Positions 8,636-57,769 of a stretch of DNA of 64,000 nt are shown here, piece after piece. Position numbers and translations under genes: made by a program. Below the pieces are notes generated by a model. The model was not told where the DNA came from. It worked only from the letters and a program-made list of their open reading frames with translations, and ran no database searches. This DNA comes from Obrimoposthia wandeli (lineage: Eukaryota): contig CDROCS010004943.1 of NCBI GenBank assembly GCA_977020255.1, positions 310,001-374,000 on the forward strand, read 5' to 3'. Position 1 is the first letter of the stretch, and each line of letters starts with the position of its first letter.

Positions 8636-8719
8636 TCCTACGACTCAACGATAACTCATCCGAATAAAATGAAATAAAATGTTGAAATCATTTCCAATTT
8701 ATGTAGTTAATGATTTAAA

Positions 8720-9000
8720 TTTTTTGCGACCCTATATATGTATTGCTCGTTAAACTACCGCAGGCCCGGAGGGCACGTGTTGGCCCACTAGACGGCTTCT
8801 CAGGACCTTCCTCACTTTTTTGGGAGCATTATGAGATTTTCAATTTTAAAGGGTGTTATATGGGGTTAATTAGTTATTGTGAGTGTTGGCCCAACACTGT
8901 TGGGGTGGGGTAAAATATTTCACTCCACACACATGCTCAGTTTTAAAGGACAGTGGAAGGAGGGGGTGTGAATTAGACCAGACACATCCACATACTTACT
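8720..9000. mobile_element. Polinton subfamily-2 right end (subterminal region and TIR)
   Basis: Ends ...gacacatccacatacttact at 9000 (reverse complement AGTAAGTATGTGGATGTGTC) and matches 40860-41121. The element extends inward to about 3220. Confidence 0.85.
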
Positions 9001-9618: not shown

Positions 9619-9704
9619 TTGTATATGATTGGTTAAAACTGTACATATAAACTTCATGCAGAGTAACTCACCTAAATCTTTATACATGGAATACAAAATG
9701 TCAT

Positions 9705-10052
9705 TTGAATTTGAATTACAAAATGAATACATTGAAGAACAGTTGGATATTTACATTTTCATTACCAGTATCCATTAGTTTAGCCAAATTCAATCATAAA
9801 CTGAATGATATTACAATGTCAGATATGGAAAACTTGAATAAAACACTGGAGCGAATGAATATCAAATATGCTTTGGAAAAACCGTTTATGTTTTTAAGAT
9901 GCGAGGATTTCTTTGACCGATTTGGAAAGAAAATAAACTTTGAATATGATTGTGAATGGTTGATTGATATATCAATACAAGGATTCAAAGAGAATAAAGA
10001 ATGTCAAATCACTCCAATTTGGAAGGTGAAGTCTGCTCATCAGTGTTTTTAA
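9705..10052 (+). CDS. Polinton hypothetical protein (115 aa)
   Basis: Open ORF co-oriented between the TBP-like and ATPase genes. No family recognised with confidence. Confidence 0.55.
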   Translation: MNLNYKMNTLKNSWIFTFSLPVSISLAKFNHKLNDITMSDMENLNKTLERMNIKYALEKPFMFLRCEDFFDRFGKKINFEYDCEWLIDISIQGFKENKECQITPIWKVKSAHQCF

Positions 10053-10177
10053 TACATGTTATAACTAGCCTTTATTATTCTTGAATAATATACATAATAA
10101 TGTATTTTAAACTTTTAATAAATATACTTATCAGAAAAATTGTTGAAGTAGTAACATAAACAATGTGTTTTTTCTAG

Positions 10178-10802
10178 AAATGTTTTATTATGATTTTAAA
10201 AAAATAATGTAGTTTATCAGGTAGTAGGGCCTTCTGGTAGGGGAAAGACGTCTTTTGTTTGAAAATTATTGAAAAGTAATTTATTTAAATATTCCTTTAA
10301 AAGGATTTATTGTCATCAAGGTGGTGCCTTTTGTGATTTAAAAAATGTTGATGTAATTGATGGTTTTGATTAAAATTGGTCAAATAGATTGAAAAAGGGA
10401 GATGTAATTGTAGTAGATGATTTATATCAAGAAGCCAATAAAGAAGCCGATTTTAATAATCTGTTTACTAAAATTGCTCGTCATAGGGAAGTTACTGTAC
10501 TCTTTATAACACAAATCCTGTTTCATCAATGAGGAGCTCACAGAACACGTAATATTAATGTACAATATTTGATATTATTTAAAAATCCTCGGGATCAAAC
10601 TGTTGTGGATTTTATTGCTAAACAGACTTATTCACATAATAAACGCTTTCTTATTGATTCGTTTCATGATGCAACAAAGAAGGCACATGGGTATTTATTC
10701 ATTGAATTTACACAAGATTGTCTTAATGATTTTAGAATTTCTACTGACTTATTTAATCCTCACGGTTATATTGTATATAAACAAAAAATAATTAACAGCT
10801 AA
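10178..10802 (+). pseudogene. Polinton packaging ATPase (A32/FtsK-HerA family)
   Basis: Walker A GPSGRGKT at 10227-10250, Walker B VIVVDD, then LFTKIARHREVTVLFITQ..YLILFKNPRD..DAT..HGYLFI. Internal stops. Confidence 0.92.
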
Positions 10803-10829
10803 ATCAAAATGTATTTTAAAAAGGTTTTG

Positions 10830-11170
10830 ATACCACATGAGAGATGATAAGTTAAAAAACTAATTTCCAACGTTTTATTTCAAAGAAAATCCAATCCATA
10901 TATTAATATACTATTAAAGACACTTAATTCTCGTAGAATGAGAATTTTAAAGTATTTTTCGACATTTGTAATAGATGATATTATTAAAGTATTCATTAAA
11001 ATAATAAGCGGTACAGTAAAAGTCGGTAAATAGGCTAATGCATTAAAGCAGTATAAACAACCACTTTTAAGAACCAAGAATAATTTAGGTAAACGTAAAA
11101 TATTTCTTTAACAATCAGGTGGTATTCTTCCGGTTTTAGCACCAATACTAGCATCACTAGCACTGTGCGT
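10830..11170 (+). pseudogene. Polinton small basic core/pVI-like protein with xGG motif
   Basis: IIKVFIKIISGTVKV..LKQYKQPL..KRKIFL*QSGGILPVLAPILASLA matches the conserved Maverick QxGGFLP.LL.PIL ORF. Confidence 0.65.
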
Positions 11171-11249
11171 TATAAGTTCATTGTTTTAATGGGTCTTGGA
11201 TCATCAATGTTGCTAAATTTCAATTTTAATTTGAAATCTTCATTCTGTA

Positions 11250-11400
11250 ATGGAAAAGACGATGTCAATATGGTTCGATCCAGAGAATCCAGTTGGATTC
11301 ACAGGAGTCTCAAAGTTGGCAGAAAAGACAAAGTCAATATAAATGTTTGCTCAGAAATATCTGAGAAATTAAATGGCCTACAGTTTCAACAAACCAAAGG
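11250..11400 (+). pseudogene. Polinton integrase N-terminus (truncated by deletion)
   Basis: MEKTMSIWFDPENPVGFTGVSKL...AYSFNKP, homologous to the start of the 14698-15696 integrase. Confidence 0.75.
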
Positions 11401-11750
11401 AAAGCTGGATTAACTGAATTTTCTTTCAATTACTCTCCAATATTAATTCAAAGTGGAACTGAAATTGAATATATTACTCAACAAGAAGTTGATAAAGTAA
11501 TTGATGTAACTTTACTATTTGATATGGGAGAATTATATTTGGCGCGTATTAAGCCAGGGATAATTTAACAATATTTTTAAATAAAGAGAATCGAATATAA
11601 ATTGCAGGACAAGGAGATGATTTTGAAATAGTTTTTAATGATGACATTATTGCAGAACAATATGGATTTCCGACTGACACTAATAAAAGAAAATATATGT
11701 TTTCAGGAATTATGGATAAACAAATTAAAATCAAACTTTAATATAACTAT
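11400..11750 (+). pseudogene. Polinton minor capsid (penton) fragment fused to the integrase by deletion
   Basis: KAGLTEFSFNYSP matches WEAALT*FSF of the 13915-14690 penton, followed by IAEQYGF (LA..LGF motif). Confidence 0.55.
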
Positions 11751-12289
11751 TAAATATTCTTAGATATTTGCATTTACATATTACAATATCTAGCCATTTT
11801 GCATAATATTTATAAATATCAAATATAATTTAATTAGCACTTGTTTACTCACAATTACTAAAGTAAAAATATTGAAATATATCAAATTTATTCAAAATTA
11901 ACCTAAACTTATTTGAATGAAAATTCCAAGACATAAATATGTACGCAAATAATATTACTGAGATGAAAACAGTCACTCACTGGATTTATGTAAAGCTGTG
12001 ATAATAGTGTTGAGATCCAAAACTGTGAAAGTCAAATACTAATTATCGAAAACTTCCTTTTATTGAAAAGAAATTGGCTCTTCCTACAATCGTTATTGAT
12101 TATTGATTATTGATTCAAAATGTAAAAATGAAACTGAAATATGTAAAAATCCTTCAGTTGTAATAGCACACACTCACGAGAAAGAATCGCCGGATACACA
12201 AAGTCGACATGCATCAATATAAACAAATGATAAGATCTTAGTGTGTTGATGCGATTTGACCTTAGTGGATATGTCAATCACACATCGCT

Positions 12290-12340
12290 GACTCATTGAG
12301 GGGTAAGGGGGTACTGGCCGGTATCGACACACCTACCTAT
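12290..12340. mobile_element. Possible third Polinton terminus closing the 9001-12340 element
   Basis: Ends ...gacacacctacctat (reverse complement ATAGGTAGGTGTGTC) after G-runs, similar to AGTAGGTAGATGTGTC termini. Confidence 0.35.
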
Positions 12341-13009
12341 TAAGCTGCATTGAATTTAATTTCTAGTCGTAAATTTCCATCTTTTGGTAATTTGCATTGG
12401 TTTATATCAAAGTCTGGTGCCAAAACAAATATGAAGATTTTTAATTTATATTAAATACCTTTAAATAATCTAAGTATGAAATTGATGTATTTAAAGAAAG
12501 TGTCTTTATAATGTCTTTATGATGAATAGTTCCAACACGTGGTAGATCTTGTAAATAAATTTATATAATACTTATCAGTAGATTGCTTATTTTTAATAAA
12601 TAAACTTTGTAAATTTTTTATTACTTTGTTTTAAAAGTAATTAATTTTAAAGTAATAAATTTTTGAAGAAAATAAGTTTTTGAAGAAAATAAATTTTCAG
12701 GAAATAAAGTTTTGATGAAAACATTTCAGACAAAAATTTTCATGTACAAAATTTTTTGGTGAAAATGATGTACAAGTGATTTAAAAACTTTTTTATTGTT
12801 GACTCCAAAAGGTTTTGAATATTTAAACAAAAACTTTTTGAAAAAATAATTTTTTGAATATTTTTTGACCCTTGAAGGTCTAATCCAAGTCAGTTCAAGG
12901 CTATTAAATTTAACTTTGAAAAGTAGAAAAATAAATTTTTTTGAAGGTTTGGACCTTTGATGTTCAGCCTTGAAGGTTTTAGACTCTTTCAGAGAAGCTA
13001 TTCAAACAA

Positions 13010-13160
13010 CCATATTAAAGAATCAACTCAAAGAAGGAATTCGAAGAATCAGCAATAAGAAGTACCTTAAAAGAAGCTACTCAAATAGCTTACTTAAAAG
13101 AACCAACTCAAATAACTTCCTTAAAAGAAGCAGCTCAAATAATCAGCTCAAAGAAATACC
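13010..13160 (+). repeat. Degenerate ~30-bp tandem repeat (cttaaaagaagcagctcaaataa)
   Basis: Four to five imperfect units inside ORF 12970-13224. Confidence 0.5.
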
Positions 13161-13679
13161 ATCAAGAGTGAGTAACCATGTGCTCATAGTCTTTGAAATG
13201 TTCTCAAAATGTGAAAGGAAATAATTCACAAAGAACAAAGCACATCACGTGTACAAATGTTGCAATTATTTGTAAATCACACACTCACACAGTCAAGGTG
13301 ACATTTTCATCACATCTGTGCGAGTGTGGGAATTTATCTTTCCTGCTGCACGCACACATACTCCAATACAAGGCAGAGATTTTCTCTGTCTTGTATTGGA
13401 GTATGTGTGCGGCTAATGGCAGCAGATTATGCCAGAATCACATCAGTCTACCGCTGGATGGATTTATGCTACAGTATTAGGTAAGTTTTAATTTATATTT
13501 ACTTTCTACTGCAATATCGAATGTAAGTTTTTTCAATATATATATGTTTGAAAGACATAATAGTGGGACAAATATCTATCGATTGTTCTTCTATTGTGTT
13601 TTTCAAACATTATTTGAATAATCGTCAATCTATATTCGATCAATAATCCTTTTAGATGATGGGATTGGATGTCTGTCTT

Positions 13680-13918
13680 TCATGGCATGAGCTCATAGTG
13701 AGCACATGGGCTCATGAACCTTGATAGCATGCTAGCCCTATCATAACCTTGAGCTCATGGTGGGCACAATAGCTCATGATCATATAATAATAACCTTGGG
13801 CTCATGGTAAGCACATGGGCTCAAAATCGTACAATAATAATAACATTGGGCTTATGGTGGGGACATGAGCTCATAAGCTCATAATAAACTTGAGCTCATG
13901 GTGAGCACATGGGCTCAC
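13680..13918. repeat. Minisatellite (aaccttgagctcatggtgagcacatgggctca core, ~50-60 bp period)
   Basis: Four to five diverged units containing GAGCTC palindromes. Confidence 0.8.
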
Positions 13919-14690
13919 ATAATGAATGCACCATAGAACAAAGGACATGCCTGATATTTAGCTGTTATGGTTTTTACTGTATGTGTTTCAAAGTTATTTT
14001 TTGTTAAACCAAAGTTTTCAGCGAGTTTATCATCAAAAAAAACCCGTTTTATATTGCTCTTTACTGTAAACGTCAACTTACCATTTTTTAATGTTACACA
14101 TTTATCGTAATATTCACTAAATTGCTTCATTATAAATTTACATAAATTCACTTCACTATCTATTTTATAATATTTTGAAATCTTTTTCAGTTCCAGTACA
14201 TCTTTAAATCTACTTTCAGCTAACAACAGTTTTGCTAATCAACTAGGAACATTTCTAACCAATTTAGATGAGACAATGTTTCGTTTCTTATTACCTATTG
14301 CATGTTCACTATTAGAACCGAATTGAAGAGCTTCTTTTTAAAAATTCAAATGTCAATTGAATCAATTGAATCAATTATAATTGATTTTTAAATACAACTT
14401 TTTATATTCATATAATACTTTCACTCCTTTATTTATACAATTAAAATATAATTTATTGTACTATAAAACCGTATCACAACAATATTTGCTTTACCGTATT
14501 TGATTTCTTTTAAAACGAAATATGAATTTTTTTTCTGATAGCAATTGGAGAATAAAAAAGAAAATTATGTTAAAGCCGCTTCCCATTTTCCTTGGAGATT
14601 TATAGGATTTTCCTAATCGATAATAAAGCTACTAGCATCATTATCCGGCTGAATTTTCGGGCATCTGCTTCTAGGTAAAACCATATATAA
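13915..14690 (-). pseudogene. Polinton minor capsid (penton) protein, N-terminal part
   Basis: LYMVLPRS...PDNDASSFIID*ENPINLQGKWEAALT is the typical FY..LPSN..PDN..F...L.G.WEV.L start. It continues into ORF 13915-14226 (KLAENFGL). Confidence 0.8.
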
Positions 14691-14697
14691 AGATTTC

Positions 14698-15696
14698 AAG
14701 TAAGATATGAATAACCATGCCATTTAACAAAGTATTGTATATGTTTATCAGTACCTTTAGATTTTAATTTTTTTTTGAATTTGGTACACGTTAGATTTAT
14801 TTGATGTTACTTGTAGTTCTTGTTCGTAAAATTCACCTTGAATGATATTGCTGCCAAAACTTTAATAGTATACATTATCGGATTACTCTTTTGATAAATT
14901 TTACTTATACAACATTTTTAATAACTCCCATTCTGATCAAAACATTTAATAAGTAGAGAAGAGCTAATTTTATAAATTCGACCATATTTGTTTTTCTTAT
15001 ATTTTACCTTTCTAATATTTTCTTTTTAATTCCTATTTATCAAAATATCCAGAGTTTTTATCAATAACATGTACTGGTCTGATTCCTTTGAGACTTTCGT
15101 GTTCAGAGTGATTATTTGCATGTATTATTTTGGGTAAAACTTTGATCCATTTTTTATTTATTTATTTTGTGAAAGACGTTTTTATTCGATCTAACAAAGT
15201 ACGATTAAATCTTTCTACTACTGATGCTTTGTACTGCAAAATTACCAAGTAGTGATTTATATTGTTTTGTTAAAATAATGATTGAATTTGCTAATTATAA
15301 AATTCTTTTCCTAAATCAGTATGCACATTTTGTGGAATGTCCTCTTATAATATTTCTTTAATGGCTTCAACCATAGCTATTGAAGACTTTGCTTTAACTG
15401 AAACTGCACGAGCAATCCTTCTAAATACATCAATACATGTTAAAATATATATGTATTCCTTATTAATGAAGAATATAGAATCATCTCCATCAAATTGATT
15501 TGCCATAAATTATTAGGATTGCTGGTTTTGTATGCTCTAGTTGGAAACATTCTTCTCATCGACTTGTTTAGACTGTAGGCTAACTGATCGCTCAGCCATT
15601 TATGCGTTTTCTTGTAATTCTATTTTTTTTTGTTGCCATTTTTGAAACTCCTGTGTAGCCAATTGGATATTTTGGATTGAGCCATATCTTCTCCAT
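14698..15696 (-). pseudogene. Polinton retroviral-like integrase with C-terminal chromodomain
   Basis: MEKIWLNPKYPIGYTG; YILTCIDVFRR; VHTDLGKEFYN; KASVVERFNRTL; QYFVKWHGY. Several stops and frameshifts. Confidence 0.9.
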
Positions 15697-16315: not shown

Positions 16316-18296
16316 TATGCACGTAATTTCACTCTAAGTAACACACAAAAATATTGTTATAGCGTTCAAAACAAGGCTCTGACACTCTGAATATCGTTGC
16401 ATAACATTACCTATGCTGCTGCTTTCATTTGGTAAGCATAAAATACTAGCTTCTTCAATAGTATTAGCATTCATCGCACATCTTCATAAAATTACAAAAT
16501 TCATAATTACGATAACTGAATAACATAATATCTAACTATTATATAGCTGCACACTCAAACACCAAGCACTGTAAAATGCAACAGTCTTGCAGACCTGGCC
16601 TTCAATTGGCACACTTTATAAAACTACAAATGATTAATAGTTGATCAAGCAAAAATTAAAACAGTATTTCTATGATTTTAATTGAAATCTTTGGAAATTT
16701 AGATACCAAAATAAGCTAATAAAATTTTATAAAATTCTCAAAAAATATCAGAACAGAAAAAGCACAGTATCTACCGAACAACCTTAATTATAGAGAAAAT
16801 TGCTTCTATCCTGAAGTAAAATCGCAAAGAATGTTGCTAGAAAGCAGGAAATAAAAGTTTACGTCAGTTTCAGCTTCTGTGGTAAACATCACAATTAAAT
16901 CACTGATTCATTATCTTTCTCAGCTAATCCATGTGGCTCTCAAGTCATGCCTGTAGCTACATAATTGCATCACCTTACACCAAACTTCATGTACACATTT
17001 CTCAAATAATTGCGCTCTTTCTCACCAAGACGTCCACAGGTAGAGTTTAGGGTCTGGTATAATAACATCAACATGACAAATAAATTCATAATTCAATTTC
17101 TCAGCTTTTCTTTATTCTTTACATAACAATACATTATAAATATTTAAATCGCATTTGCACTATATGGTGTCCCAAAAATATCTCCCTATTTACATTTTCT
17201 CATTTAACTTTCCAAAATTATGCTTTCTTAAGACTGTGTTTGAAAATAATATAAAGTAACAATTCATTTGTACATACTGGTTAATTAATAACTTTACAAT
17301 AAATTACCATAAAAATTAAAATAGGTACCAACAATTAGGTAAATGTGCAAAATGATCAAGTACTCTAATACATGAATACATGCACTTTCAGTCGTCAATG
17401 GAAATTAAATGATAAATATATTGATTTTCTGACATAAATTTTGTGACATCAGTAGGTAGAAGGATGGAGTCTATGCCACTTAACCCCCCCACCCCTCATC
17501 ATGTGCACACAATGTCAAAGGATTTCTCAACATAAGGATGTCACATCATAAGGGTATATGTTGACTCACCATAAGGATGTCTTGTCACAACATAAGGGTC
17601 TGGCTCAGAAAGGTTATGATAGGGGGAGGAGGAAGGGTTAAGTGGCTTAGTCTCCATCCTTCTTATGGTTGACCAACATAGCCTAGGGTTGTGGTCGTCC
17701 ATAATTCAAAGGGTCGGCAGAGTTTTGACTTGAAGGTTTTAAGGTATGATCATATCCGTCTATGGTTGGCCATCACATCTAAAGGGTTGTGGTCGTCCAT
17801 AATTCAAAGGGTCGGGCTAAAACAAAATCAAGTTTTAAATATCAAGGTTTTAGTACATGGTTGGAATCATCTTTAGAAGGCGAATTCATCCATATAGGTA
17901 TGGTCGTTCATAGATGAAGGGTTAAAAATTTTTGGAATTTCATAGTTTTAAGAACATGGTTGTATTCGTCAACATATTACGAGTTTAATCATGTAAAAAG
18001 TTTATGGTCGTTCACAATGTAAGAGTCAGATTTGGCATAAGTTAAAGAATTATATAGTAATTAATCAATTATTCTTTGTGAAAGTTAAAGTTCACTCTTA
18101 TCAGTTAAGGAATGTTTTACGTAATAATACACACACTATTCTATGTGAAAATTTAGATAAAAGTTTTTTCAAGGCTTATGCATCTAAAGAATTATAATAA
18201 AATTTCTTTAAATAACTTAAATTATATATTAAAATAAAATAAAATAAGAAAGAAGTCAGAGAATAATACAAAATTAAACACATTTATTATGTTATT

Positions 18297-18378
18297 TCAT
18301 AATGTCATATTCAAACTTAAGTGAATAACATTTACAAAGTAAGAAAATCCATTCTTTATACATTCTTCTTTCCGATTC
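18297..18378 (-). pseudogene. 82-bp pPolB remnant
   Basis: EWIFLLCKCYSLKFEYD, a near-exact match to about 50480-50550. Confidence 0.75.
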
Positions 18379-18399
18379 AACGACTAAGTTACTGCGTCA

Positions 18400-19700
18400 T
18401 TAATAGAAAAAAACAAAACAACAACACTAAGTTTGACGCTATGACTGAAAATCAATAAAATATTAATGTATTTTAATATATTTGAATGATAGTTTGAATA
18501 AATGAGAGTTAGATTGAATGTAAATAAATGCAAGTATGAATGCAATTGAATGCAAATACAAGTAAGAGTCTTAGCAAGTGAATGTTATTTTTAAAAAAAT
18601 AAGAGTGCCGAGAGTATGATTGAATGAAAGTGTTATTTAGACTATAAGTAAATTAAAATAGAGTTTTCGTATGAATAAAGTTATGTTAAGTTACAGTTAG
18701 ATTAATAACAAGTAAGCAATTATAAGAAGCAGTAATACTGAGTTATGTTAAAAGTTAGAATTACTAAGTTACAGCAAGATTAATAGAAAACAATAATATG
18801 TTTGACGGCCATTTAAAACTTCTTTTTGGTAAAGGTTGATTAAACATTTAATAACATTCCTTAATTAATTAATTTTTTTTTAAAACAGATAAACTTTAAT
18901 TATTTATTTTTAAAGAACTTGGTTAAAGAAATGTTTAATTATATAATTTGAATATTAACATTATTCGATTTACACTTTAAACATTCGAAATTATCTTTAA
19001 CACATTAAAAAAAAAAACTTCGATTTTTTAAATTTGTATCGAATTTTGAAAATTCATTTGCAAACACATGTTATTCAAAGCTACTGAAAGCTCAGTATAT
19101 AAATTCGAATATCAAATCTTTAATTATATTGTTTTATATGTAAATAAATCAAATTATGTACATATTCGATTATCAACTTAGTATTTCTATTTATTATTCG
19201 ACTTTCTAAAATAATTAAAATGTCTTGTAGGAACACATAAAATTAATAATCGATTGTATGAATTAATACAAGAATGAATGCAAGTGAATGCAAGAATGAT
19301 TGTAAGTGAATACAAGTATGAATGCAAGTGAATGCAAATACAAGTAAGAGTCTTAGCAAGTGAATTAAATTGAAAAATAAGAGTGTCGAGAGTTTCATTG
19401 AATGCGAGTGTAATTTAGACTCTAAGTAAATTAAAATAGAGTTTTCATATGAATAAAATTTATATTAAGTACCAGTTATATTAATTACAAGTAAGCAACT
19501 ATAAGAAGCAGTAAAAATATTAATGAATTTGAATGCTAGTTTGAATAATGAGTGTAAATGAATGTAAATGTAAATGAATGTAAGTATGAATGCAAGAGAA
19601 TACAAATACAAGTAAGAGTCTTTGCAAGTGAATGTAAAACTGTAAGTGAGTACTAGCTAATTATTAAATTAATACTATCAATCAATGAAGATGATGTAAC
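18400..19700. repeat. GAATGCAAGT-type short repeats in ~500-bp higher-order units
   Basis: Repeated tgaatgcaag/aaatacaagtaagagtcttagcaagtgaatg blocks. The same array occurs at 51860-53830. Confidence 0.85.
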
Positions 19701-22700
19701 AATCTGATGAAATTATAATAATTACGATGTGAATTTATATATTTTATTTTCACATATTTTACCTTAATGTACTTGCTCTAAAGTTAACAGTTCATACACA
19801 CTCACGCAATTAAATAATTAAAATGTCTTATCTCGTTTGATAACATTCCTTAATTTAAATATTTTTAAATAATTAGATAAATTTGAATTATTTATTTTCA
19901 AATAACTTGATTATACAAATATATTCATGAATATAATTTGAAATTATCATTATTCGTTTCACTTTTTAACTATTCGATAATATATTTATATATACAAATT
20001 TAGATTATGGTTTAAAAGGATACTAAGAGTTAAAAAGAGTAACTAAAAAGATAGTAATATCGAATGTGTAAATGAACTAGAGTTATAGAGTATGACTGAA
20101 ATTGTAACTGAGGACGTTAATTAGTATAATAATAATCTTCACACAAAAAATATATATTTAAATTACTTGATATTTTTTGTCGTTGTCTTATTAATATAAT
20201 ATGAATATTCAATTTATTTCTTCAAAAATTCCTTTTATATATTAAACAACCTTTCTTTACCACATTATTGTAGTTTTTTATCAAGTGATTTTATATTTAA
20301 ACTATAAAACTATTTTAACTATAAAGTTAGTAGCTGTATTTCGCCGACTGCATATAATATAAATTTCAAACATAAGTTACTTTTAAATTTATTCTTTCAA
20401 ATATTAAAAGTTCTTTCGAGTTATTTAATTTTGTTTACTAGACATTCGAAAATTACTTGTAAACATAATATATTTTTGTATATATTTAGTTTAATATGTT
20501 GTAAGTTATTATTGTAATATTCCATTACATAAAAGTAATTGATAGTTTAATATCGTTTACAATAAATTGAAAAATATATACATAGTTGTAAGCAAATCAG
20601 TATTAATTGATTTAAACTAGATTAACCTTGTTTAATTTTGAGTATATTATATTCTTTGACTTAAATATGCAAATTTCAGTTATGAGTTGTTCATATATGA
20701 ATATTTTAAACTTATTTCATGATTTTACAACAAAAAATTTCAAATAGTTTACTTATTAATCATAATTTCAATGATTTTATCTGACATTTATTAATTTACT
20801 GTTTATAACAAGAAAACGGTAATTATAAACTTTAGCTACTGAAACTGTTTACTTTCCAAAATTGGTGTTGATTCTTATTTCAATATATTTTACGCTTATC
20901 ATGAAATAAATTTACAGTTTACTTTATACAATTTGTTATATATGACATACAATTACAGTTCTGTTGCAATAATTAATTATTAATAAAGAATATCAAATGA
21001 TATTTATTAATATTAAAAATACCGATAAATTATGATTAAACCATAAGTTTTGATTAAAATAAACTTATTACTTCTCTTTCCTAAATTATATTTTAATACG
21101 AATCGTAATATACAAATTTCGTTGTATTCTAGCATTTTATTATAAATATTCTTTAAGTAAAATTAGTTAAAATATTTATTAGTGTATTCAGTTGTTATTT
21201 TTGAATATAGCATTATTTCTTTTTAATTAGTTTTTTTTAATACTACATTTAATTTCTTTAACAACTACATGTTTTTACAATATTAGATACGAAGTAATCT
21301 GTTATTTTAGTTTAGGTTTTGTTGCGTCAGTTTTTTTTCAACTTTATCTAACAATATTTAATTTAATCTAATTAATAGGATATGAAATATTAGATAATCT
21401 ATTGTATAACAGAAGTAAGTATGTATTTATTATATATTTAAGATAATTACAATTTTGTTTTAACAATTTAATAAAAAAGTCAAAAAATATCAAAGAGCAA
21501 GATTTTAGGCTCTGGAGTGACGAACAAAGAGAAGGATCTCTTGACAAGAAAATTATTAAAATAATTTCCAAATATGATTTTAAAAATCTACAAGAAAGTG
21601 TTAATACTTACAAAAGTGTTAAAGAAATGGTAATTTTTATTCTTATTTTACAGAGGAATAGCGGACTATTGGAAGTTAATTTTGATCTACAGAAACTGAA
21701 GATCAACTGTGGTGAAGAAAATTTAACATAATATATAAATATCTTTTTAGTGTTTTTCTTCTTTTTGTAGTACCTATAATAACGGTAGTTTGATAGAATT
21801 CAATAAATATTTATTAACATATTTCACTATAATTAAAATTAACTTTACCGTTTGCAGACTTTGCTTTATTGGTAGAGCATTGCGTGTGACACATTATTTT
21901 CATAGAGTTTTAAATATAATAGTTTAAAGTTCATATTTTATTAAAATAAATTAAAGTTTAAATATTAAATACACTTCTAACAAATATTTGACAATAAATA
22001 TATGCAAATGACCAAATTTTTAAAAAACTATATTTTCATAATTCCACACACACTATTAATTTTAAAATTTTATATTCAGAAAGAATATATTAAATACAGT
22101 TTCCAATGTTGTATGATATTAGAACTTGTGTGCTTGTATTCAATGATTAACTTTTATTAAACTTTTATATAATTTTTACCACAAAAGGATATTTAAATAT
22201 ATTTTAGTTTAAGATAAAGAATGAGGTTATACAAGGTTAATGTAGTTTAAAACAATTAATACCAATTTTTTTACCAAAATTTGTAAAGAACAATAAACTA
22301 TTATGATCTACAATAAAGAAACTATTGAATTACAATATAACCATTCGTATTCAGTAAATTAATAAATGTAAGATATTCTAAAATATTTCGAAGTTGTGAA
22401 GATATTTCTTGTTTGCAAAATATTTTAAAATTTCTAAACTATAAAACAAATTTGAAAATATTCTATGTATATTCTAGTACAAAATTTTTTGTAAATAATT
22501 CTATGTAAAATAAAAATCTTGAATAATTTTTATTATACAATTTTATCTATATGTTGAGGTTATCTAATGAGTGTGGGTTATGGAAAATTTTCTAATCTAC
22601 ATAAACTTGGCTAAATATAAAGAAATTAAAAAAAATGAAAATCTAGACATATTTTAACGTGATAAAATAAGAGTGAAACTAAAAAGTGAACTAAAATAAA

Positions 22701-23138
22701 AATCAAAGTATTACATCAATGTACCAAGTCTTACTTCATATTCATCAGATAAATTTATATGCTCAACAATTTAAGTACTTTTTTAAAACAAATTTAAATA
22801 AGGTATAAATTCAATTGAAAGATTTTTCATTCGAATGACATTTGGATCATAACTTTGTTACAGAATGTATTGGTCAGCGAGATTTTGCGTCCCAGCTGTA
22901 GCCGATTGAATGAGCATTGAAATGTTCGATGATTTTGAGGAATTGTGATATTTTCCTAACATTGATTTGTTAGATTTTTCTCAAAGGGGCTCAATTCGAT
23001 TTTTCTTCATTGTCAGGCCAGCTACAGTGGTATTGAATTTTCTCCGGTACACCACTATGAGAAGCTCTATGAGACAGACTTCAAATTTTGTTCATTTAAT
23101 CCCGAAGACGATGGCAAATTTATATGTTGTAAGCGAAT

Positions 23139-24050
23139 ATGAGTCAAACAATCTGTGTAACAAATTTCAAAGAGGACAATAAAAACTCAGTCGCTTATAT
23201 CTCAGGTGTCTGGGAACGACAGATGATGTTGATGGACTTACCCACTGGGAACCCTACATATGTTCCAAGAGAGCCTCAGGATTCATCGTGCCCAAAGACA
23301 GAGACTCCAATCTTGAGGACGTCCCCAACACGACTGAGCGAGCGAGCCGCATTAGAGGCGGACCCTCTTTGTGAGCGCGTGAGTCGTCTGCTCGTGATCT
23401 ATACTGGCGGAACTATCGGCATGAACAGCTCCGACGAGGGCTACACGCCTGAAGCAGGCTTCCTGAGTTCTCAGCTGCACCGTAGTCAGGAGGGCTCGCG
23501 AGCACTGCACGACCCGGAATTCATGGCTCGCTACACGCAGAACCTGGATCGGGAGCACGACTGCGTCTTCGCTTTGCCGCCACTGGTGATATCCGGAGCT
23601 CGAGTCCGGGTTCTGTATGCGGTGTGGGAGTACGCCCAGCTGCTGGACTCGTGTGACATCATCAGAGACGACTACCTGCGCATCGTGCGTGATATTCGTG
23701 ACAACTACGAGCACTACGACGGCATTGTAGTGCTACATGGAACTGACACGATGGCGGAGACCGGTTCAGTGCTCTCCTTCTTGCTGGAGAGCCTCACAAA
23801 GCCTCACTGGCTCCCAGATCCCGCTCTTCGAGCCTGGAAGTGACGGCAGCAACAACTTCCGGCGGCGTCAAAGGCCTCTACAAGACCGGCATTGTGCTGC
23901 GCAACTATGGTGTTCTCTCCGGTGCAGACATGACAATCAAGGCTGCGCACGCCAAGCTAGCCTTCGTGTGTGCGCGTTCAGATTAGAGTCTGCAGCAGAA
24001 GAAAGACGCTCTCATCGGCAGTCTTCGCGGGGAACTGACTCCGCAATAGC
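23139..24050 (+). pseudogene. L-asparaginase (type I/ASPG-like catalytic domain), intronless, frameshifted and internally deleted
   Basis: LLVIYTGGTIGM at about 23388-23423, LLDS.D, HGTDTM at 23736-23753, frameshift at about 23800 into LTGSQIP..SDGSNNF, deletion junction at about 23860, then GVLSGADMT..AAHAKL, stop at 23982, LRGELTPQ*. GC-rich. The 5' part (23139-23310) may be unrelated fused DNA. Confidence 0.92.
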
Positions 24051-32960: not shown

Positions 32961-33290
32961 TGACCTGAAGGCATCGCGGTTTTATGGACGACCATTATCC
33001 CATACTTTAAAAACTTCAAGTCAAAACTCTGCCTGACACATTCATCTATGGACGGCCACAACCCTTGGATATGTTGGTCAACCTTAAGAAGGATGGAGAC
33101 TAGATCACTTGACCCCCCCTTCCCTCAATCATAACCTTTATGAGCCAAACCCTTATGGTGTGGCAAGACACCCTTATGGTGAGGCAACATATACCCTTAT
33201 GGTGTGAATCTCTTATGGTGAGGCAACATATACCCTTATGGTGTGAATCTCTTATGGTGTGACACCCTTATTTAACATTGTGTGCTCACA
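32960..33290. mobile_element. Polinton subfamily-1 right TIR, outermost ~40 bp missing
   Basis: ttatggacg repeats, gaaggatggagactagatcacttgaccc and a cccttatggtg array, colinear with about 55160-55460. Confidence 0.85.
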
Positions 33291-39921: not shown

Positions 39922-41121
39922 AGTAGGTGGATGTGTCCGGTCTAATCCACACCCCCTCCCCCCACTGTCCTTTAAAATCGTGCATGTGTGTGGAGTGAAA
40001 ATTCGTGCATGTGTTTTGAGTAAAATTTCGTGTATGTGTGTGAAGTGAAATTTTCTAACCCCCCGGGGGGTACCACTGTTCTTTAGAACCATGCATGTGT
40101 GTGGAGTGAAAATTCGTGCATGTGTGTGGAGTGAAATTTTGTGTGTGTAGGGGAAAAATTGAAAAAGCATTGAATAAGAGCTTCCTCCACCCATATTTTT
40201 TATTTTACTTTGAAATTTATCTCAAAAGTGGTTAGAGAAGACCACGGGAATCCATATTGACCCCGGCGGCTTATCGCAGACAAGATTTCAAATATATTAC
40301 TACATGTTAAATATTTAGGTCAGAGAGAAAAATTAGATCACTATATAATTTAGAGGAGAAAAAACAAAATATGGCGTCGAGGTTTCTTAACCGTCGCTTG
40401 TTTCCTATCGACGAGTAGTCTGAGAGTTGCCTCCTCCCAAATTTCCTCTACCAATTCGGCTTCCTATGTGAATAATTAAAATTATTAACTTATTTATAAT
40501 AATTTACCTCAAATTGATCCGGAGTCGGTAGGTATCTCTGCTCACTCCTGGGATCATCCTGGCTACATTGACTCGCCAAGTACTGCGGTTCAATCAGCCT
40601 CTCCGCCGTGGTCACTGACGGTGCCAAATCCAGTTGAAGTTTCTAAAAATGAAATTAAAAAACATTTTAAATAAATTAATAGACTAACCTCATTCGTCGC
40701 CTTTATTCTCCTAACAGGACGTATCGGAGATTGCGGTCTTTTGAACGGATCAGGCACCGTATTGTCGGCTATTGGAGTTGGTGTTGCAGAGGGAGTGAGA
40801 CCATCCCAATCATCGGCGACCAGTATATATATGTATGGATATAAATTCTTATAAGGAAAATTTTTTCGCGACCCTGTATATGTATTGCTCGTTAAACCAC
40901 CGCGGGCCCGGAGGGCACGTTTTGGCTCACTAGACGGCCTCTCAGGACCTTCCTCACTTTTTTGGGAGCACTTTGAGATTTTCAATTTTAAAGGGTGTTA
41001 TATGGGGTTAATTAGTTTTTTTCAGTGTTGGGATAAAGAAAATTTCACTCCACACACATGCTCAGTTTTAAAGGAGAGTGGGGGGAGGGGGTGTGGATTA
41101 GACCGGACACATCTACCTACT
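39922..41121. mobile_element. Complete 1.2-kb non-autonomous Polinton (subfamily 2) with TIRs and 6-bp TSD
   Basis: TIRs of about 85 bp (AGTAGGTGGATGTGTCCGGTCTAATCC and its reverse complement). TSD ATTTAT at 39916-39921 and 41122-41127. Confidence 0.93.
40370..40818 (-). pseudogene. 3' half of gene X with both introns intact
   Basis: Introns 40643-40688 and 40464-40507, both phase 0, around a 135-nt exon. Spliced product reads ...RIKATNE|KLQLDL...TPDQFE|EAELVEEIWEEATLR. Confidence 0.8.
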
Positions 41122-49295: not shown

Positions 49296-50254
49296 TAAAA
49301 TGAATATATTCACAAGCAGATTGCTATAGATGATGTACTGTTTTTTCAATTTAAGATGACTTTGTGTATATCATAAATAATGACATGTTTCATTAAATGT
49401 GACTACAGTTGTACAGAAACTTTATTTAAACATTTCTCTATACCTTACACATCAAATAGCATTTTCTCTCTTTGGGTATTAATCCTACTGAAGCAAGGAA
49501 GATTGCTGGAGTGCTTACTTCTCAACCGGAAGACATTTTCGAAGACACTTCCAGCGCGTGTGACCGGAAATGTTTTCTCAAGGCTTAGTGGAACCTGTTG
49601 AGAACAAGAGCCAGCCTTAGGAAACTGCGAGTCTCTATATAGTGAAAATATGGATCACAAGATATATTGGTAAATTTGCGTTGAAGAAGTTGAATGAATA
49701 ATCATGAATTGTAGTATTAAATATCCAAAGACAAAAACACCATGTAAATATTTATTGGTATTTAATGAAAAGTCGAAAATAATTCAACTAGTCGACATAA
49801 AATTCCTAATTGATGATAAACAAAAGTGGGAACAGACATTCAATGTGTTCTACCTGGATTATCGAGTTTCACTTGATACCTTGCATATTAATTCCAGAGT
49901 TTGATAAAGATTAATAATCACTCTTTTAATGATTAAAGACACTACACAACTCCCATCTATGTGAAAGTTAAAGTTCACTCTTATCAGTTAAGGAATATAT
50001 TACGTAATAACACACAAACTATTATATGGGAAAATTTAGGCTAAAGTTCACTATTGTCAGTTAAGGAATGTTTTACGTAATAATACACACACTATTCTAT
50101 GTGAAGATTTTGATCAAAGTCTTTTTATGCATCTAAAGAATTATGATAAAATTTCTGTAAATAAATTAAATTATATAGTAAAATCAAAATAAAATAAGAA
50201 AGAAGTCAGATAATAATACAAAATTGAACACATTTATTATGTAATTTCATAATG

Positions 50255-51660
50255 TCCATAAGCGCGGTTTCTATTTTTCTCGATCCAATAGCGTTTGTCG
50301 TCTGATGAGATGAGAGCAGTCTTTTGTATAATGATTGTGTATAGCTGGTGATTTATTGTTCCAAACTTCTTTCGTGGTATAGTATATGCATTACCGTTTT
50401 CATACACGTATAAATATGTTTGGTGTACAACCGTTGATCCCTTAAAATTTACTCATTTTGCTTTATTATTTTCAAAGTCATCTTCAAACTTAAGTGAATA
50501 ACATTTACAAAGTAAGAAAATCCATTCTTTATACATTCTTCCTTTCGATTCTTCTTTAAATAATCCTATTTTACTATTAAAATCATTAGAATATAACGGA
50601 TCATTCACATTATAATTTGACGTATCTAATGCTCCATCTGCAATCATTTGTTGCAACAACTGATTTCTTAAATTAACACATTTGCATTCTAAAAAGAACG
50701 AATCAGTATCTCCGACAACTATATTAATTGAACAATTAAAAATTATCTATAATTTTGTAAATCATGATACTGAAGAGTATACATTCATAATTTGTTAAGG
50801 TCTAGTACGGCTTGGCCTATATAATTTGGTCGATCGAGACAAATAAAGTATTTTCTTAATAAAGCAGCTATTAAATTATCATGAATTTCAATTGATCGTT
50901 GAAACATAAGTTTGCTAGTATATGTGATTAATTTTGTAGAACTAGTGCAGATGCGAAGATTCAACCGTTTCTTAACATTTTCAACGGTATTTCCATACAA
51001 ACTAACATTTTTAAGTTTATAAAAATCTTTGTCACATTTATTCGTTGCTTGTGATCTCATTTCTGAATTATATTCTATATATTCTGCGAATATCTTAGCC
51101 TGAGAGAATTTTACTGCTCGATGAATAATTGTTACCACTGCTCCTAAACTAACGTACATCTGCAATAGTCTCCAATGATTAACGTAATGACCTTTTGGTG
51201 AATGTGTCATTAAAAGTTTTTCAAAAATTTACCAGGAGGACATTTCTTTTCTGGAGCTATAGGTAGTTCGCCTAAAATGTCATAAAGGTTTTCCGGTATT
51301 ATCAAGTCTACCCCCATAACATGACCATATTCAATATGTTCCATGTTCATATTTTTCATTTCATGCAATATTTCGTTTAATTTATATCATCAAGAATCTA
51401 TGCAAAATCTCATTTGGGTAAAAGTTGATCAAGAGCCCATCCATATAAACTATTAACATCTATGTATAAAAGACTCGTTTCTTCATCAGCAACTACATGA
51501 TGCTTATTGACAAATGTCATTCCTTCACGTATACCTGAAGAAATCATGTACATTTCAGGATCTTGCATCAGTTTAACCTTATGTATTAACATTAGCACTT
51601 GCCCAGCTCAACCCAGGAATGCTTAAGGGTTAAGTGATTCTAAACCATCTTTGCTGAGAG
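50255..51660 (-). pseudogene. Polinton pPolB polymerase domain (C-terminal half)
   Basis: GIREGM..LLYIDVNSLYGWAL (motif A), FYKLKNVSLYGNTVEN (motif B), YIGQAVLDL, VGDTDSFF (motif C), IGLFKEE, SDDKR. Confidence 0.93.
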
Positions 51661-51859
51661 TTTTTCTTCTGAATGTTTTATTTAAAATTTACTGAAAGCT
51701 TCGTCCATAAATTATAATATCAAATCTTTAATTATATGGTTTTATATGTAAATAAATCAAATTATGTACATATTCGATTATCAACTTAATACTTCTATTT
51801 ATTATTTGACTTTCTAAAATAACTAAAATGTCTTGTAAGAACACATAAAATTAATTATC

Positions 51860-53830: not shown

Positions 53831-54442
53831 AATGGTATGAATGAAAATAATGTGAGTAAAACTATAGACAAGTAAGTTATTAGAAATGTATGATTGAAAG
53901 TAAATGTAAATTACAATGTAAATAAATGAGTTAGAGATTATGGTTGAAAATGATGTTAGTAATTATGGTTGAAAATTATGCTAAGTAATACATTCTTTAA
54001 CTGATAAGAGTGAACTTTAACTCTCACATATAATAATTGATTGAATACTATAGATTTCCATAACTTATGACAAATCTGACCCTTACCTTGTGAACGACCA
54101 TAAAAATATTTACATGATTAAATCGTAATATGGTGACAAATAAAACCATGTACTTAAAACTATGAAATTCCAACTTTTGTTAACCCTTCATCTATGGACG
54201 ACTATACCTTTATGGATGAATTCGTCTTCTAAAGCTGATTCCAAACATGTTTTCAAACCTTGTCATTTAAAACTTGATTTTGTCTTTAGCCCCACCCTTG
54301 ATTTATGGACGTCATTTCAAAAGGAAAACTATGTAATATATTAAAGAGGCATCAAATTATACGAGTTATGAATCCTGTGAAAATATCAAAAGTGGAGAAT
54401 AAATATCTCATATAAATTTTAACAACATCTGATATTGATCAA

Positions 54443-54676
54443 TTGAAAAATAGTTTGGGATTTTACATTCCTGATTATGTATATGAAGGAAATTCTTTCC
54501 AGCTGGAAACTGATCCCAGTCTGGATTTTAAAGATGATCTAGGATATTTGATTGCTCCAATTCTAGATGAAGAACTATGGAATATCTCAATACATCTCAA
54601 TGGATATTTTGCTGATGACGGGAAAATGCAGCCTCTTTGGACTTTGAGTGAAGCCAATATGTTGTTTTTTGTTTAA
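54443..54676 (+). CDS. Hypothetical 77-aa ORF inside the nested insertion
   Basis: Protein-like acidic/aromatic composition. Non-ATG start and no recognised family. Confidence 0.3.
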   Translation: MKNSLGFYIPDYVYEGNSFQLETDPSLDFKDDLGYLIAPILDEELWNISIHLNGYFADDGKMQPLWTLSEANMLFFV

Positions 54677-54699
54677 TAAATATTTTGAAAAATAATTTT

Positions 54700-55094
54700 G
54701 ACTTGTATTTTGTTTTTTCTCCTCTAAATTATACAGATCTAATTTTCTCTTATAAATCTGACCTAAATATTTAACATGTAGTAATCTAAAATCTTTCATA
54801 AAAATAGTAGTAATATATTGACATTTGAAATCTCGTCTGCGATAAGCCGCCGGGGCCGATATGAATTCCCGTGGTCTTCTCTAACCACTTTCGAGATTCG
54901 CGGTAAATTTCAAAGTACAATTTTAACAAATGGGGGGGACCCTTTCCCTTCCTATTCGATGCTTTTTCAAAAAAAATTCTCTACACACATACTCAAAATT
55001 TCACTTCACACACATGCACGGTTTTAAAGGACAGTGGTACCCCCTCCCCCGGGGGAGGGGAAGGGGTGGATTAGACCGGACACATCCACCTACT
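54700..55094 (-). mobile_element. Polinton subfamily-2 left end inserted into the subfamily-1 TIR
   Basis: Reverse complement of 39922-40370. The terminus ...cacatccacctact at 55094 abuts aaccatag of the subfamily-1 repeat unit. Confidence 0.85.
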
Positions 55095-57769
55095 AACCAT
55101 AGTTAACCTCAATTATACCTTCAAACATACAAGTCAAAACTGAGCCCGACCCTTTGATTTATGGACGACCACAACCCTTTAGATGTAATAGCCAACCATA
55201 ATTGACCTCAATTATACCTTCAAACCTTCAAGTCAAAACTCTGCCTGACCCTTTAAATTATGGACGACCACAACCATTTAGTGGTTGACCATAAGAAGGA
55301 TGGAGACTAGATCACTTGACCCCTCCCTTCTCTCCTCTATCATAATCTTTCTGAGCAAGACCTTTATGCTGAGACAAAACACCCTTATGGCGAGGCAACA
55401 TATACCATTATGGTGTGACACCCTTATGATGTGACATCCTTTAACATTGTGTGCGCACAAGGGGGCAAGTGATCTAGACTCCATTCTTCTACTTACTATA
55501 AACCATTGAGATAGTTCTCATCGTTACCGTTTTCTTAGTTAGCTTGTAGATTAAAGATAATTGCATGTGTGTTTTGTGCAGTAAAGGCTCCGCATATATG
55601 GGGAATTTGATTCAAATATAATCCGAGATTCTCACTAGAAATCAGTGGGGAAAACATTTGACATTAACGGTTTACATCTCTTATCAAAAATCGCTTCAAT
55701 GAGATGTCAAAAATGACGCTATTTAGCGGTTGTTCATGAAATCCCTTTTGACATTGGTTAGCAGTATATAGGCAGTATAATTGGAAATCTGATGAGTTGT
55801 CAGATATAAAGAGTTTTTTAATAGTATAACGAATTTGATCTCATCATGCCGTTTCTCCCTTTAAAAGCATCCTATAATATAAGAGACTTACCTAAATAAC
55901 TTAACTCGACAATTTCGATTTGATGGTTTCTTTATTTTTATAGGATATTCCTATCAAAGGTTTCAAAAATAAAATATATTATTGGAATATCATTTTATTA
56001 AACACCTTTTTTTTCTTGTAATTTATATAAATGATTCGTTATTTTATTTAGTATCAAATTTATTGTACAACGTTACTTTGTCAATTGTACGAATATTAAT
56101 TATTTTAGCTATAATAATTATATTTGAATGAGTTTTTTTAATTTACTTTAATTATCTTTCTGAATTTGAATTTAAAATATTTCCATTTGATAAAAAAGTT
56201 ATAAATTATTTTGTTTGAACATTATTGTTCAATAAAGACTTAATTATTATACATTTTTGAACTTCAACAAAATATCGTACAAATAATATACCAGTTTTCC
56301 TGATTATTTTAAAAGAAATTTAACACAGTGTATTTCTTCGCCAACGCGATATATAACAGTGGCTATAAGAAACTTTGCGAAACATAATAGAAATAAACAA
56401 AGTGGCGGCAAACATTGAGGGTTGTGAAAGACTCAACTTGTCAAATATCTGTGCGCAGTCATTACATATCCAAATCGATCATTCTGTGAAATATTTAATA
56501 TTTAATTAATCTGCCAATGAAAGTCACTGTTTCAAAATTTATGAGTTTCAGCTTACTATCGAGGTATTCTGTAGCAAATTCGTATATCTAACAAACTGTT
56601 TTCCCTATTTCAGCTTCCTGAACACTAATTAGTAAAGTGATACATAAAAAATTCAGATTTTACTGCATAGTTCTCAGAGGGAATTCTGATAAACAATTCA
56701 AATACATTTCCATTTATGTTCTTGTTTAAAAGTAAACTGTTCAACTCACGTTTAACAATTTTTCAAAAAAAACTCACATTTTTTTATTAAACTTTCCTTT
56801 TTAATATTATGAATATGAAACAAATTTTAATAATCTTATAAAAATATCGTATCTAAATTTTCGAAGTTAATATTGTAAATTTGTATTGATAGAAATTCAA
56901 GCAGAAATGCAAACTTGATCAAGAATTGTCAGTTTAACCTTTTGAGTGTACAATTGAATCTTTATTGTATGATTTTTATATGATTAAAAAATTCAAATAA
57001 AAAACAAATATAGACCGGCATTGGGGGATATTTCTTTATATAGCAAACTATTGATAGTTTATATTGATTTGCATGGAAAATGGATTATTCAATTGTAAAA
57101 CAATTGCTGTGTAAATGTTTATTAAAGTATCTTTCGTAAGATTATGTATAATTTCTATTTCAATATCTACATGACATTTTATTTAATTTGTCCCTCATTT
57201 TAGAGCCGAATAATATTATATGTTCTCTAATTTTCTTAATCAAACTTAGACATTATTATTTTCCGAATATTAAAGTTTTCGTTAGCTTCTTGCTTTTTTC
57301 AACATTGTGAACATTTCTGGTCTTTGTTATTGGATTTCTATCTGTTTGTTGTGTGAGAATTTCTTAACCAATCTGCAGTCATCATCGGTGCCCCAAATAT
57401 GCACCAGGATGGAGAAGATCAGGCATATATTTGGGCTTTTTTGAGAATACATTTTTCGATCATATGTAGGATCTTGAATTCAATGACTGCCCTTTTCATT
57501 AATTTGAATATAACTCTTACAGCTTTGTTTAAAATATTTAAAATCGATTTCTACATTCGAGTCACACAATTTAACCAGAATACCTAGTGAGTCATTTAAG
57601 TAAGCATACCAGGCAATAAGGCAATGAACCAAACCACAAAGAAAAAAAATATTGATATATATCTATATTTGTCTAGAACTACCGATGATGTCTAAATATG
57701 TCACGTTTATAGTATGATATTTTACTTTTCTTATTCCAATTTTTATTATTTTACGTCTTATTCAGATGC

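What the first reader, a model, noticed from the sequence alone, without database searches (positions are those of the whole stretch)
17451..17662. Each subfamily-1 terminus folds into a 28-bp stem around a tandem-repeat loop, with covarying arms
Seen: the arms at 17459-17486 and 17635-17662 match at 26/28 as inverted repeats, and those at 55462-55489 and 55295-55322 match at 25/28. Between the two termini the arm core changes from GCcacttA to ATcacttG in both arms together. The GTC (outer) versus GAC (inner) mismatch is kept in both. The loop is an array of cccttatggtg units. Inference: selection on a terminal hairpin or on paired protein-binding sites within a single TIR, a second level of structure beyond the usual end-to-end pairing, perhaps for replication initiation or integrase end recognition.
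Basis: partly seen in the sequence, partly recalled or inferred. Interest (0 to 1): 0.7.

Follow-up and report, generated by a model that had tools for sequence, protein, structure and literature searches.

The report
Fold-back stem inside Polinton ends
The ends of a many-copy virus-like transposon (a Polinton) carry two mirror-image 28-letter arms about 140 letters apart that changed together between copies, so each end can fold back on itself and leave its last seven letters free, possibly to mark where copying starts; what it does is untested.

Summary
Observation confirmed: arms pair 26/28 (end A, 17451) and 25/28 (end B, 55497), far beyond chance; three pairs changed on both sides and one T·T mismatch is kept. 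The ends belong to different decayed copies of a Polinton whose pPolB carries an endonuclease-VII-like domain. Public contigs of the same organism (one sample) show both arms at about 10^4 times flank depth, and one covarying pair tracks in frequency (78-92% against 68-89%). Against clean covariation: only about two independent double changes; a frequent inner-arm change has no listed partner change; a sister family in the window lacks the stem. The stem leaves 7 terminal bases unpaired and shows no flip-flop, so it is not a parvovirus-type primer. Best reading (0.45): a selected fold-back of single-stranded replication intermediates at a protein-primed origin. Rivals: paired binding sites on duplex DNA (0.27) and neutral duplication with patch conversion (0.2). 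Palindromes at virophage/PLV tips are already described; this offset, long-loop form in a pPolB Polinton was not found in five literature searches. New variant of a known kind; moderate interest.

The parts
17451..17457 (+). Terminal 7 nt of end A (starts 5'-AG), left unpaired by the stem
   Evidence: Folds; depth jumps from about 10^2 to 10^6 here, and loose ends with unrelated flanks (agreement 0.44) start at 17451
17458..17486 (+).
17487..17634 (+). 148-nt spacer: C tract, unique DNA, four CATAAGG-headed units (starts 17531, 17547, 17570, 17591), purine tract
17635..17663 (+). Inner arm of end A; T·T mismatches at k12 (17470/17651) and k16 (17474/17647)
17451..18128 (+). Terminal inverted repeat of copy A (minimum extent; 81-87% like end B)
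18283..18378 (-). Short piece of the pPolB C-terminal coding region shortly inside TIR A (90% like 50462-50551)
55491..55497 (-). Terminal 7 nt of end B, unpaired
55462..55490 (-). Outer arm of end B
55323..55461 (-). 139-nt spacer of end B with four units
55295..55322 (-). Inner arm of end B
54312..55094 (-). One end and part of a sister-family (subfamily 2) Polinton nested in TIR B
53975..54311 (-). Inner part of TIR B, resuming after the nested piece (87% like 17794-18128)
50249..51769 (-). Broken C-terminal half of pPolB in the copy that ends at B
33001..33290 (-). Third end C: inner arm 33088-33115 (28/28 identical to B's), spacer about 40 nt longer through an exact 39-nt duplication, outer arm and terminus missing
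39922..41121 (+). 1.2-kb non-autonomous subfamily-2 element with 5'-AG ends and a 6-bp target-site duplication (ATTTAT); no long terminal stem (comparison case)

Best explanation
A family-wide cis-element at the origin end of a pPolB Polinton, kept by selection on arm-to-arm pairing. Protein-primed, strand-displacement replication (and the proposed single-stranded excision intermediate) exposes each end as single-stranded DNA. The first ~212 nt then fold at once into a 29-bp stem with a large loop, long before the far TIR is free to form the end-to-end panhandle. The fold leaves 7 nt unpaired: the terminal-protein-bearing 5' tip on one strand and, on the other, the 3' template on which priming starts. 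It would act as a local, transient origin or end-cap, not as a primer. SHOWN: geometry, folding potential on both strands, presence family-wide, joint change of three pairs, a retained T·T. INFERRED: selection, that it folds in vivo, and its role.
For: Stem pairs have probability about 1 on both strands of A and B. All 4 inner-arm differences between A and B fall on positions that also changed in the outer arm, P 7e-4 by site and 0.005 by event, while the TIR around them diverged 11-16%. The k24 pair tracks in contig depth: 17482 A>G 78/90/91/92% and 17639 T>C 68/83/88/89%. No B-type change at 17474 or 17647 reaches 5% (my count of change types), so k24 and k16-18 look like separate events. 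Conversion starting from the 3' tip would have to erase the k12 mismatch before reaching k16-24, yet k12 persists in A and B. Inner arms of B and C are 28/28 identical with flanks 15-17% diverged (P 0.005-0.01). The unpartnered change at 17657 would give a G·T wobble on the 3'-ended strand (inference). Precedent for folded, compensated telomeres at protein-capped ends: Streptomyces (PMC7205883, passages).
Against: Only two complete ends could be compared; the shuffle control is reached by 53 of 500. Contigs give frequencies, not linkage, come from one sample, and favour A-like copies. 17657 T>C (70-93%) has no listed partner at 17464; 13 rows were hidden and one hidden row is A>G, so this is likely but not certain. 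The four subfamily-2 ends, which share the AGTA-- start, have no long stem (scores 5-7, reached by 28-150 of 150 shuffles), so it is not needed by Polintons generally. A TIR-TIR duplex of 680 bp or more would out-compete a 29-bp stem at equilibrium (inference). Panhandle-type intermediates themselves lack direct evidence (PMC11886824, passages).
Confidence: 0.45

Rival explanations
1. Two inverted binding sites on duplex DNA for one protein (integrase, or an origin-binding protein), with the CATAAGG units as auxiliary sites; base pairing is incidental. The 139-148-bp spacing, near one nucleosome wrap (147 bp, recalled), could bring the two sites together.
For: Fixed asymmetry at k12 fits two non-identical sites. 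k1-k15 of the inner arm are identical in A, B and C, and B = C at 28/28. The TIR is rich in short dyads: 9 of 11 TGG-N4-CCA matches in the window lie in subfamily-1 TIRs (partly tandem copies). The apparent uncompensated change at 17657.
Against: Four positions (k16-18, k24) changed identically in both sites, which needs a shift in protein specificity or conversion as well. C's spacer is about 40 nt longer.
Confidence: 0.27
2. No function: an old inverted duplication of the terminus by template switching, kept alike by occasional arm-to-arm patch conversion during replication.
For: Only about two joint events are seen. A run of three changes (k16-18) that also repairs a mismatch looks like one conversion tract. 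Subfamily 2 does without the stem. Inverted repeats are cited as directing repair of adenovirus ends (title only, reference 66 of PMC11886824).
Against: k12 T·T, nearer the tip than the changed block, survives in both lineages and is not among the listed variants. The inner arm is retained at high depth family-wide and is more conserved than its flanks between B and C.
Confidence: 0.2
3. Parvovirus- or poxvirus-type terminal hairpin that primes replication and is resolved by hairpin transfer, as proposed for Halocafeteria virophages and PLVs.
For: Terminal palindromes with that proposed role exist in related elements (bioRxiv 10.64898/2026.07.28.741278, section 7). The pPolB here carries an endonuclease-VII-like motif.
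Against: The 3' end is a 7-nt unpaired flap. The loop has the same orientation in 3 of 3 ends and k12 is T·T, never A·A, in 2 of 2. None of the 15 joints shown changes strand (29 hidden). The element encodes a protein-primed polymerase, whereas the preprint links palindromes mainly to non-pPolB replicons.
Confidence: 0.04
4. The 204-bp arm-loop-arm unit is a separate MITE inserted 7-8 bp inside the Polinton end.
For: The size and the 28-bp inverted arms resemble a MITE.
Against: No duplication flanks the unit in A or B. Diverse flanks begin at 17451, not at the arm, and high depth runs on past the inner arm. No empty-site joint is among the 15 shown.
Confidence: 0.02

Closest known systems
Polinton/Maverick TIRs (pPolB2-type with HNH/endonuclease-VII insertion; Jeong et al., bioRxiv 10.1101/2023.08.22.554363, passages seen)
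   Same: 5'-AG ends, TIR of several hundred bp, pPolB next to the TIR, integrase and ATPase remnants in the window, 6-bp duplication in the sister family.
   Different: An internal 29-bp stem within one TIR is not mentioned in the passages searched ('hairpin' and 'palindrom' occur 0 times). The standard model pairs the two TIRs end to end (racket model, seen second-hand in PMC4196379 passages).
Terminal palindromes of endogenous virophages and PLVs of Halocafeteria seosinensis (bioRxiv 10.64898/2026.07.28.741278; section 7 read)
   Same: A fold-back element inside the TIR, next to the host junction, in integrated Polinton-like elements.
   Different: Those are tight palindromes (52 nt in subtype 5; detection allowed gaps of at most 10) at the tip, mainly in non-pPolB elements, proposed as primers. 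Here the stem starts 7 nt inside, closes a 139-148-nt loop, keeps mismatches and sits in a pPolB element.
Streptomyces telomere palindromes (PMC7205883, passages seen)
   Same: Folding of the terminal ~160-210 nt of a protein-capped linear replicon, with compensatory changes between strains.
   Different: Bacterial; several short hairpins with sheared loops, used for end patching (role recalled); here one long stem with a repeat-bearing loop. No homology.
Adenovirus/PRD1 panhandle (PMC11886824, passages seen)
   Same: A displaced single strand folding through inverted repeats at a protein-primed origin.
   Different: The panhandle joins the two genome ends and rebuilds a duplex tip; this stem is local and leaves the tip single-stranded.

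Membership tests
Polinton/Maverick | Protein-primed family B polymerase | tested here: met
   50788-51228 has 57-62% identity to 5 of 5 hits, 4 with PF03175; broken pieces map at 50249-51769 and 18283-18378, physically inside ends B and A
Polinton/Maverick | Terminal inverted repeats of 100-1500 bp | tested here: met
   A and B match in inverted orientation over about 680 bp at 81-87%; they come from different copies
Polinton/Maverick | 5'-AG termini (feature recalled) | tested here: met
   2 of 2 complete subfamily-1 ends and 4 of 4 subfamily-2 ends start AGTA; boundary confirmed by loose ends at 17451
Polinton/Maverick | 6-bp target-site duplication | tested here: inconclusive
   No intact subfamily-1 copy lies in the window (A and B flanks differ); met for the subfamily-2 element 39922-41121
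Polinton/Maverick | Retroviral-type integrase and packaging ATPase | tested here: inconclusive
   Remnants of rve-chromo integrase (11247-11396, 15066-15598) and ATPase (10221-10787) are in the window but lie outside copies A and B
Polinton/Maverick | Capsid proteins and protease | tested here: inconclusive
   Not detected by tblastn with 971 ORFs of related loci; the copies are decayed and no dedicated profile search was run
pPolB2-type Polintons | HNH/endonuclease-VII insertion in pPolB | tested here: met
   PF02945 in 3 of 3 relatives scanned (2 above the cut-off); the CxxC..DHDH..CxxCN motif is in both window N-halves, each with a stop. No tree was built
Hairpin-primed termini (parvovirus type; Halocafeteria model) | 3' end base-paired at the tip | tested here: not met
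   7 terminal nt are unpaired on both strands of A and B
Hairpin-primed termini (parvovirus type; Halocafeteria model) | Flip and flop orientations | tested here: not met
   Same loop orientation in 3 of 3 ends; no strand-changing joint in 15 shown of 44, so the family-wide test is incomplete
MITE | Own target-site duplication and independent insertions | tested here: not met
Rfam structured RNAs | Match to a family model | tested here: not met
   0 matches at E <= 1 in 17000-18500
Selected single-stranded DNA structure | Phylogenetically corrected covariation over many copies, and folding in vivo | not testable with these tools
   No genome is held; only 2 complete ends and contig-level frequencies were available

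The most novel reading that the evidence does not exclude
Some pPolB Polintons carry a self-contained single-stranded origin at each end: a local stem that exposes a 7-nt priming template, with a conserved T·T/A·A mismatch that tells the two strands apart and may be read by the endonuclease-VII-like domain of the polymerase. Weak 10-bp stems starting 13-14 nt inside the ends of another Polinton (L007) and of a bidnavirus-like segment (L033) would be simpler versions of the same design. That would give the long-proposed single-stranded Polinton intermediate a sequence footprint that can be probed on a 212-nt oligonucleotide.
Probability: 0.17. Interest if true: 0.7.

Novelty: new variant of a known kind. 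Interest (0 to 1): 0.38.

Why it matters
Polinton replication and excision are known almost only from sequence; the single-stranded 'racket' intermediate is a model. A terminal stem whose arms change together, in a family with at least hundreds of ends in one genome, is a natural dataset for asking whether Polinton DNA is under selection as single-stranded DNA. If covariation holds over all copies, it is indirect evidence for that intermediate and defines a short substrate for probing. If it fails, this is a family-specific inverted duplication of little wider interest.

Tried and rejected
No whole genome is held, so all ends could not be aligned. Exact-pattern scans for the ends found 0 stretches in viral contigs and 0 in metagenomes. 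None of 115 loci with related pPolB matched the subfamily-1 or subfamily-2 TIR queries by blastn; the closest loci (about 50% protein identity) do not reach their termini. Pattern scans for a short subfamily-2-like terminal dyad in viral contigs (34 and 120+ stretches) looked like chance hits and were not followed. That dyad seen at L031's left end is absent from its right end: rejected. Generality test on 5 outside elements with defined ends: 10-bp stems beat 150 of 150 shuffles in 2 (L007, L033), both picked by eye beforehand; L028, L031 and L116 were not significant; energy z-scores were +0.48 (L007) and -2.12 (L033), so this is a weak lead only. A first profile scan of viral contigs and a scan with L007's polymerase gave nothing new. 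Host identity: not obtained (the atlas gave no result). Linking end C to the gene block 25690-31898: about 1.1 kb between them shows no similarity to the matching region of the other copy, so it is not claimed. Rfam: nothing. Look-ups of earlier findings by place, sequence and a long word list returned nothing.

Full report
1. The observation. Folding as single-stranded DNA gives z = -5.03 and -4.99 against 200 shuffles (1 and 0 as good). A simple stem score gives 23 and 22; 0 of 150 shuffles reach it for either end, and the best of 160 window tiles is 12. The stem starts at base 8, so 7 terminal bases stay unpaired, and the stem pairs have probability near 1 on both strands. The spacer is 148 and 139 nt; about half of it is four CATAAGG-headed units of 16-23 nt. 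A third end, C (33001-33290, minus strand), keeps the spacer and an inner arm identical to B's but has lost the outer arm and tip.

2. What the ends belong to. The window (about 30% G+C) is a graveyard of Polinton copies in an unidentified eukaryote. ORF 50788-51228 is 57-62% identical to protein-primed family B polymerases (5 hits among 218 candidates); pieces map at 50249-51769, 3307-5043 and 28915-29656, and both N-halves keep an endonuclease-VII-like motif interrupted by a stop, as described for some pPolB2 Polintons (bioRxiv 10.1101/2023.08.22.554363, passages). Integrase, ATPase and TBP-like remnants lie at 9382-15598, outside copies A and B. A and B match in inverted orientation over about 680 bp (81-87%) but share no target-site duplication. 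A's interior repeats, in direct orientation, the interior of B's copy, so they are the left end of one copy and the right end of another. A sister family (subfamily 2) has four ends here, one 1.2-kb element with a 6-bp duplication and one half-element nested in TIR B.

3. Covariation in the window. Between A and B the outer arm differs at k5, 16, 17, 18, 24, 25 and the inner arm at k16, 17, 18, 24. All 4 inner changes meet an outer change: P = 7e-4 by site, 0.005 if k16-18 is one event. Three pairs are true double changes; k16 goes from T·T to G-C; k12 stays T·T; k5 and k25 are B-only breaks. The tool's shuffle control is reached by 53 of 500, as expected with two sequences, and sliding the partners removes all double changes. 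Surrounding TIR segments differ by 11-16%, so the arms are not less diverged between A and B, only diverged in step. Between B and C the inner arm is 28/28 with flanks 15-17% apart (P 0.005-0.01).

4. The family beyond the window. Four public contig sets of the same organism, one sample and one study, were laid on 17380-17800 at 80% likeness. Depth rises from about 10^1-10^2 in the flank to 10^5-10^6 at 17451, where loose ends with unrelated flanks begin. Arm depth is 1.2-2.0 x 10^4 times flank depth in the three runs with flank cover; overlapping short contigs are summed, so I read this only as hundreds to many thousands of ends. The k24 pair moves together: 17482 A>G 78/90/91/92%, 17639 T>C 68/83/88/89%. 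Against the reading: 17657 T>C reaches 70/89/93/93%, although all 3 window copies have T, and its partner 17464 is not among the 40 rows shown. Thirteen rows are hidden, one of them A>G; shown rows all reach about 20% in some run, so I infer the partner is rarer. The alternative is that outer arms of another subfamily were laid on the inner arm. Neither T of k12 or k16 is listed. By my count of change types, the B-type letters at 17474 and 17647 stay under 5%, though B-like contigs may lay poorly on A. Contigs give no linkage between arms. None of the 15 joints shown (29 hidden) changes strand or removes exactly the arm-loop-arm unit.

5. Mechanism. Hairpin priming fails on geometry: the 3' end is a 7-nt flap, trimming it would lose the conserved tip, and no flip form is seen. 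Conversion starting from the tip, as in panhandle repair, would erase k12 before reaching k16-24; k12 survives, so either patches skip it or selection keeps it (inference). I favour (0.45) a selected local fold-back of the single-stranded end produced by strand displacement or by the proposed single-stranded excision, leaving the priming template or the protein-capped tip free. It could only be a kinetic intermediate, as the full TIR duplex is far more stable (inference). A duplex dyad of binding sites (0.27) explains the fixed asymmetry and the unpartnered change as well or better, but not the joint changes. Neutral duplication with patch conversion (0.2) is not excluded by about two events, and subfamily 2 lacks the stem (scores 5-7).

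6. Other elements. Of 115 loci with related polymerases (35 viral; best 80 of 553 metagenomic), none matched the TIR. Five outside elements had usable ends: L007 (a Polinton by its ATPase and rve-chromo genes) and L033 (pPolB plus Parvo_NS1; bidnavirus identity recalled) have perfect 10-bp stems starting 13-14 nt inside (0 of 150 shuffles each), three do not, and energy z-scores are +0.48 and -2.12. PMC4061559 (passages) states that bidnavirus repeats do not form parvovirus-type hairpins. This is a lead, not support.

7. Known and new. Palindromes inside TIRs next to the host junction are reported for Halocafeteria virophages and PLVs, mostly those without pPolB (bioRxiv 10.64898/2026.07.28.741278, section 7 and passages). 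Unchecked notes of this scan report similar tips in chytrids and a protist and an 18-bp stem inside a Giardia Polinton end; they lower novelty and are not evidence. Compensated telomere hairpins are known in Streptomyces (PMC7205883, passages). Searches returned no paper whose listing or passages describe an offset, long-loop stem in a pPolB Polinton TIR. I saw passages of PMC11296320, PMC12220804, PMC8363768, PMC8502044, PMC11886824 and PMC4196379; the original Polinton and Maverick papers and Repbase entries were not seen, and no supplements were read (bioRxiv ones are closed), so a prior description there is possible.

8. Verdict. Real feature, interpretation partly supported, new variant of a known kind, interest 0.38. 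The boldest reading not excluded, a self-contained single-stranded origin with a strand-marking mismatch, has probability 0.17 and would deserve 0.7.

Noticed in passing
window 9310-9615 (+): TBP-like ORF (Pfam TBP, E 9e-12) among Polinton genes; a related TBP gene lies in Polinton-like locus L040. PMC8502044 lists TBP in a figure legend of related viruses.
   Followed up: partly
window 23133-23843 (+): Asparaginase N-terminal ORF (E 1.5e-23) in a 53% G+C island within 22-28% G+C DNA; best relatives only 39-46% identical, bacterial and eukaryotic. Origin unexplained.
   Followed up: partly
window 39922-41121: Complete 1.2-kb non-autonomous Polinton derivative (subfamily 2) with 6-bp target-site duplication; its interior and right end match 7086-7528 and 8717-8996, so it is an internal-deletion product of that element type.
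   Followed up: partly
window 54312-55094: A subfamily-2 end is nested inside the subfamily-1 TIR B, at a 99-bp tandem repeat; this copy has a 20-nt perfect C/G palindrome just after the tip.
   Followed up: partly
window 17663-17800, 32985-33058, 55162-55291: Short dyads TGG-N4-CCA: 9 of 11 window matches lie in subfamily-1 TIRs, beyond the inner arm; candidate protein-binding repeats, partly tandem copies.
   Followed up: partly
window 2-7088 and 25690-31898: Two copies (86-97% alike) of a Polinton gene block, each with an rve fragment (2457-2903; looks Gypsy-like by recalled motifs) interrupting or abutting the pPolB N-half.
   Followed up: no
window 18379-19799 and 51682-53848: Strongly G-skewed array of GAATGCAAGT-type units inside subfamily-1 copies, between pPolB remnants and the TIR.
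   Followed up: no
window 34445-35205: 27-bp tandem array of about 26 copies.
   Followed up: no
L007:13-70 and L033:14-105: Perfect 10-bp stems starting 13-14 nt inside the terminal repeats of a distant Polinton and a bidnavirus-like segment.
   Followed up: partly
L039:7727-8299: 75-bp inverted repeat (92%) with a 423-nt spacer near the contig end of a pPolB-bearing locus; could be a MITE or a larger version of the same design.
   Followed up: no
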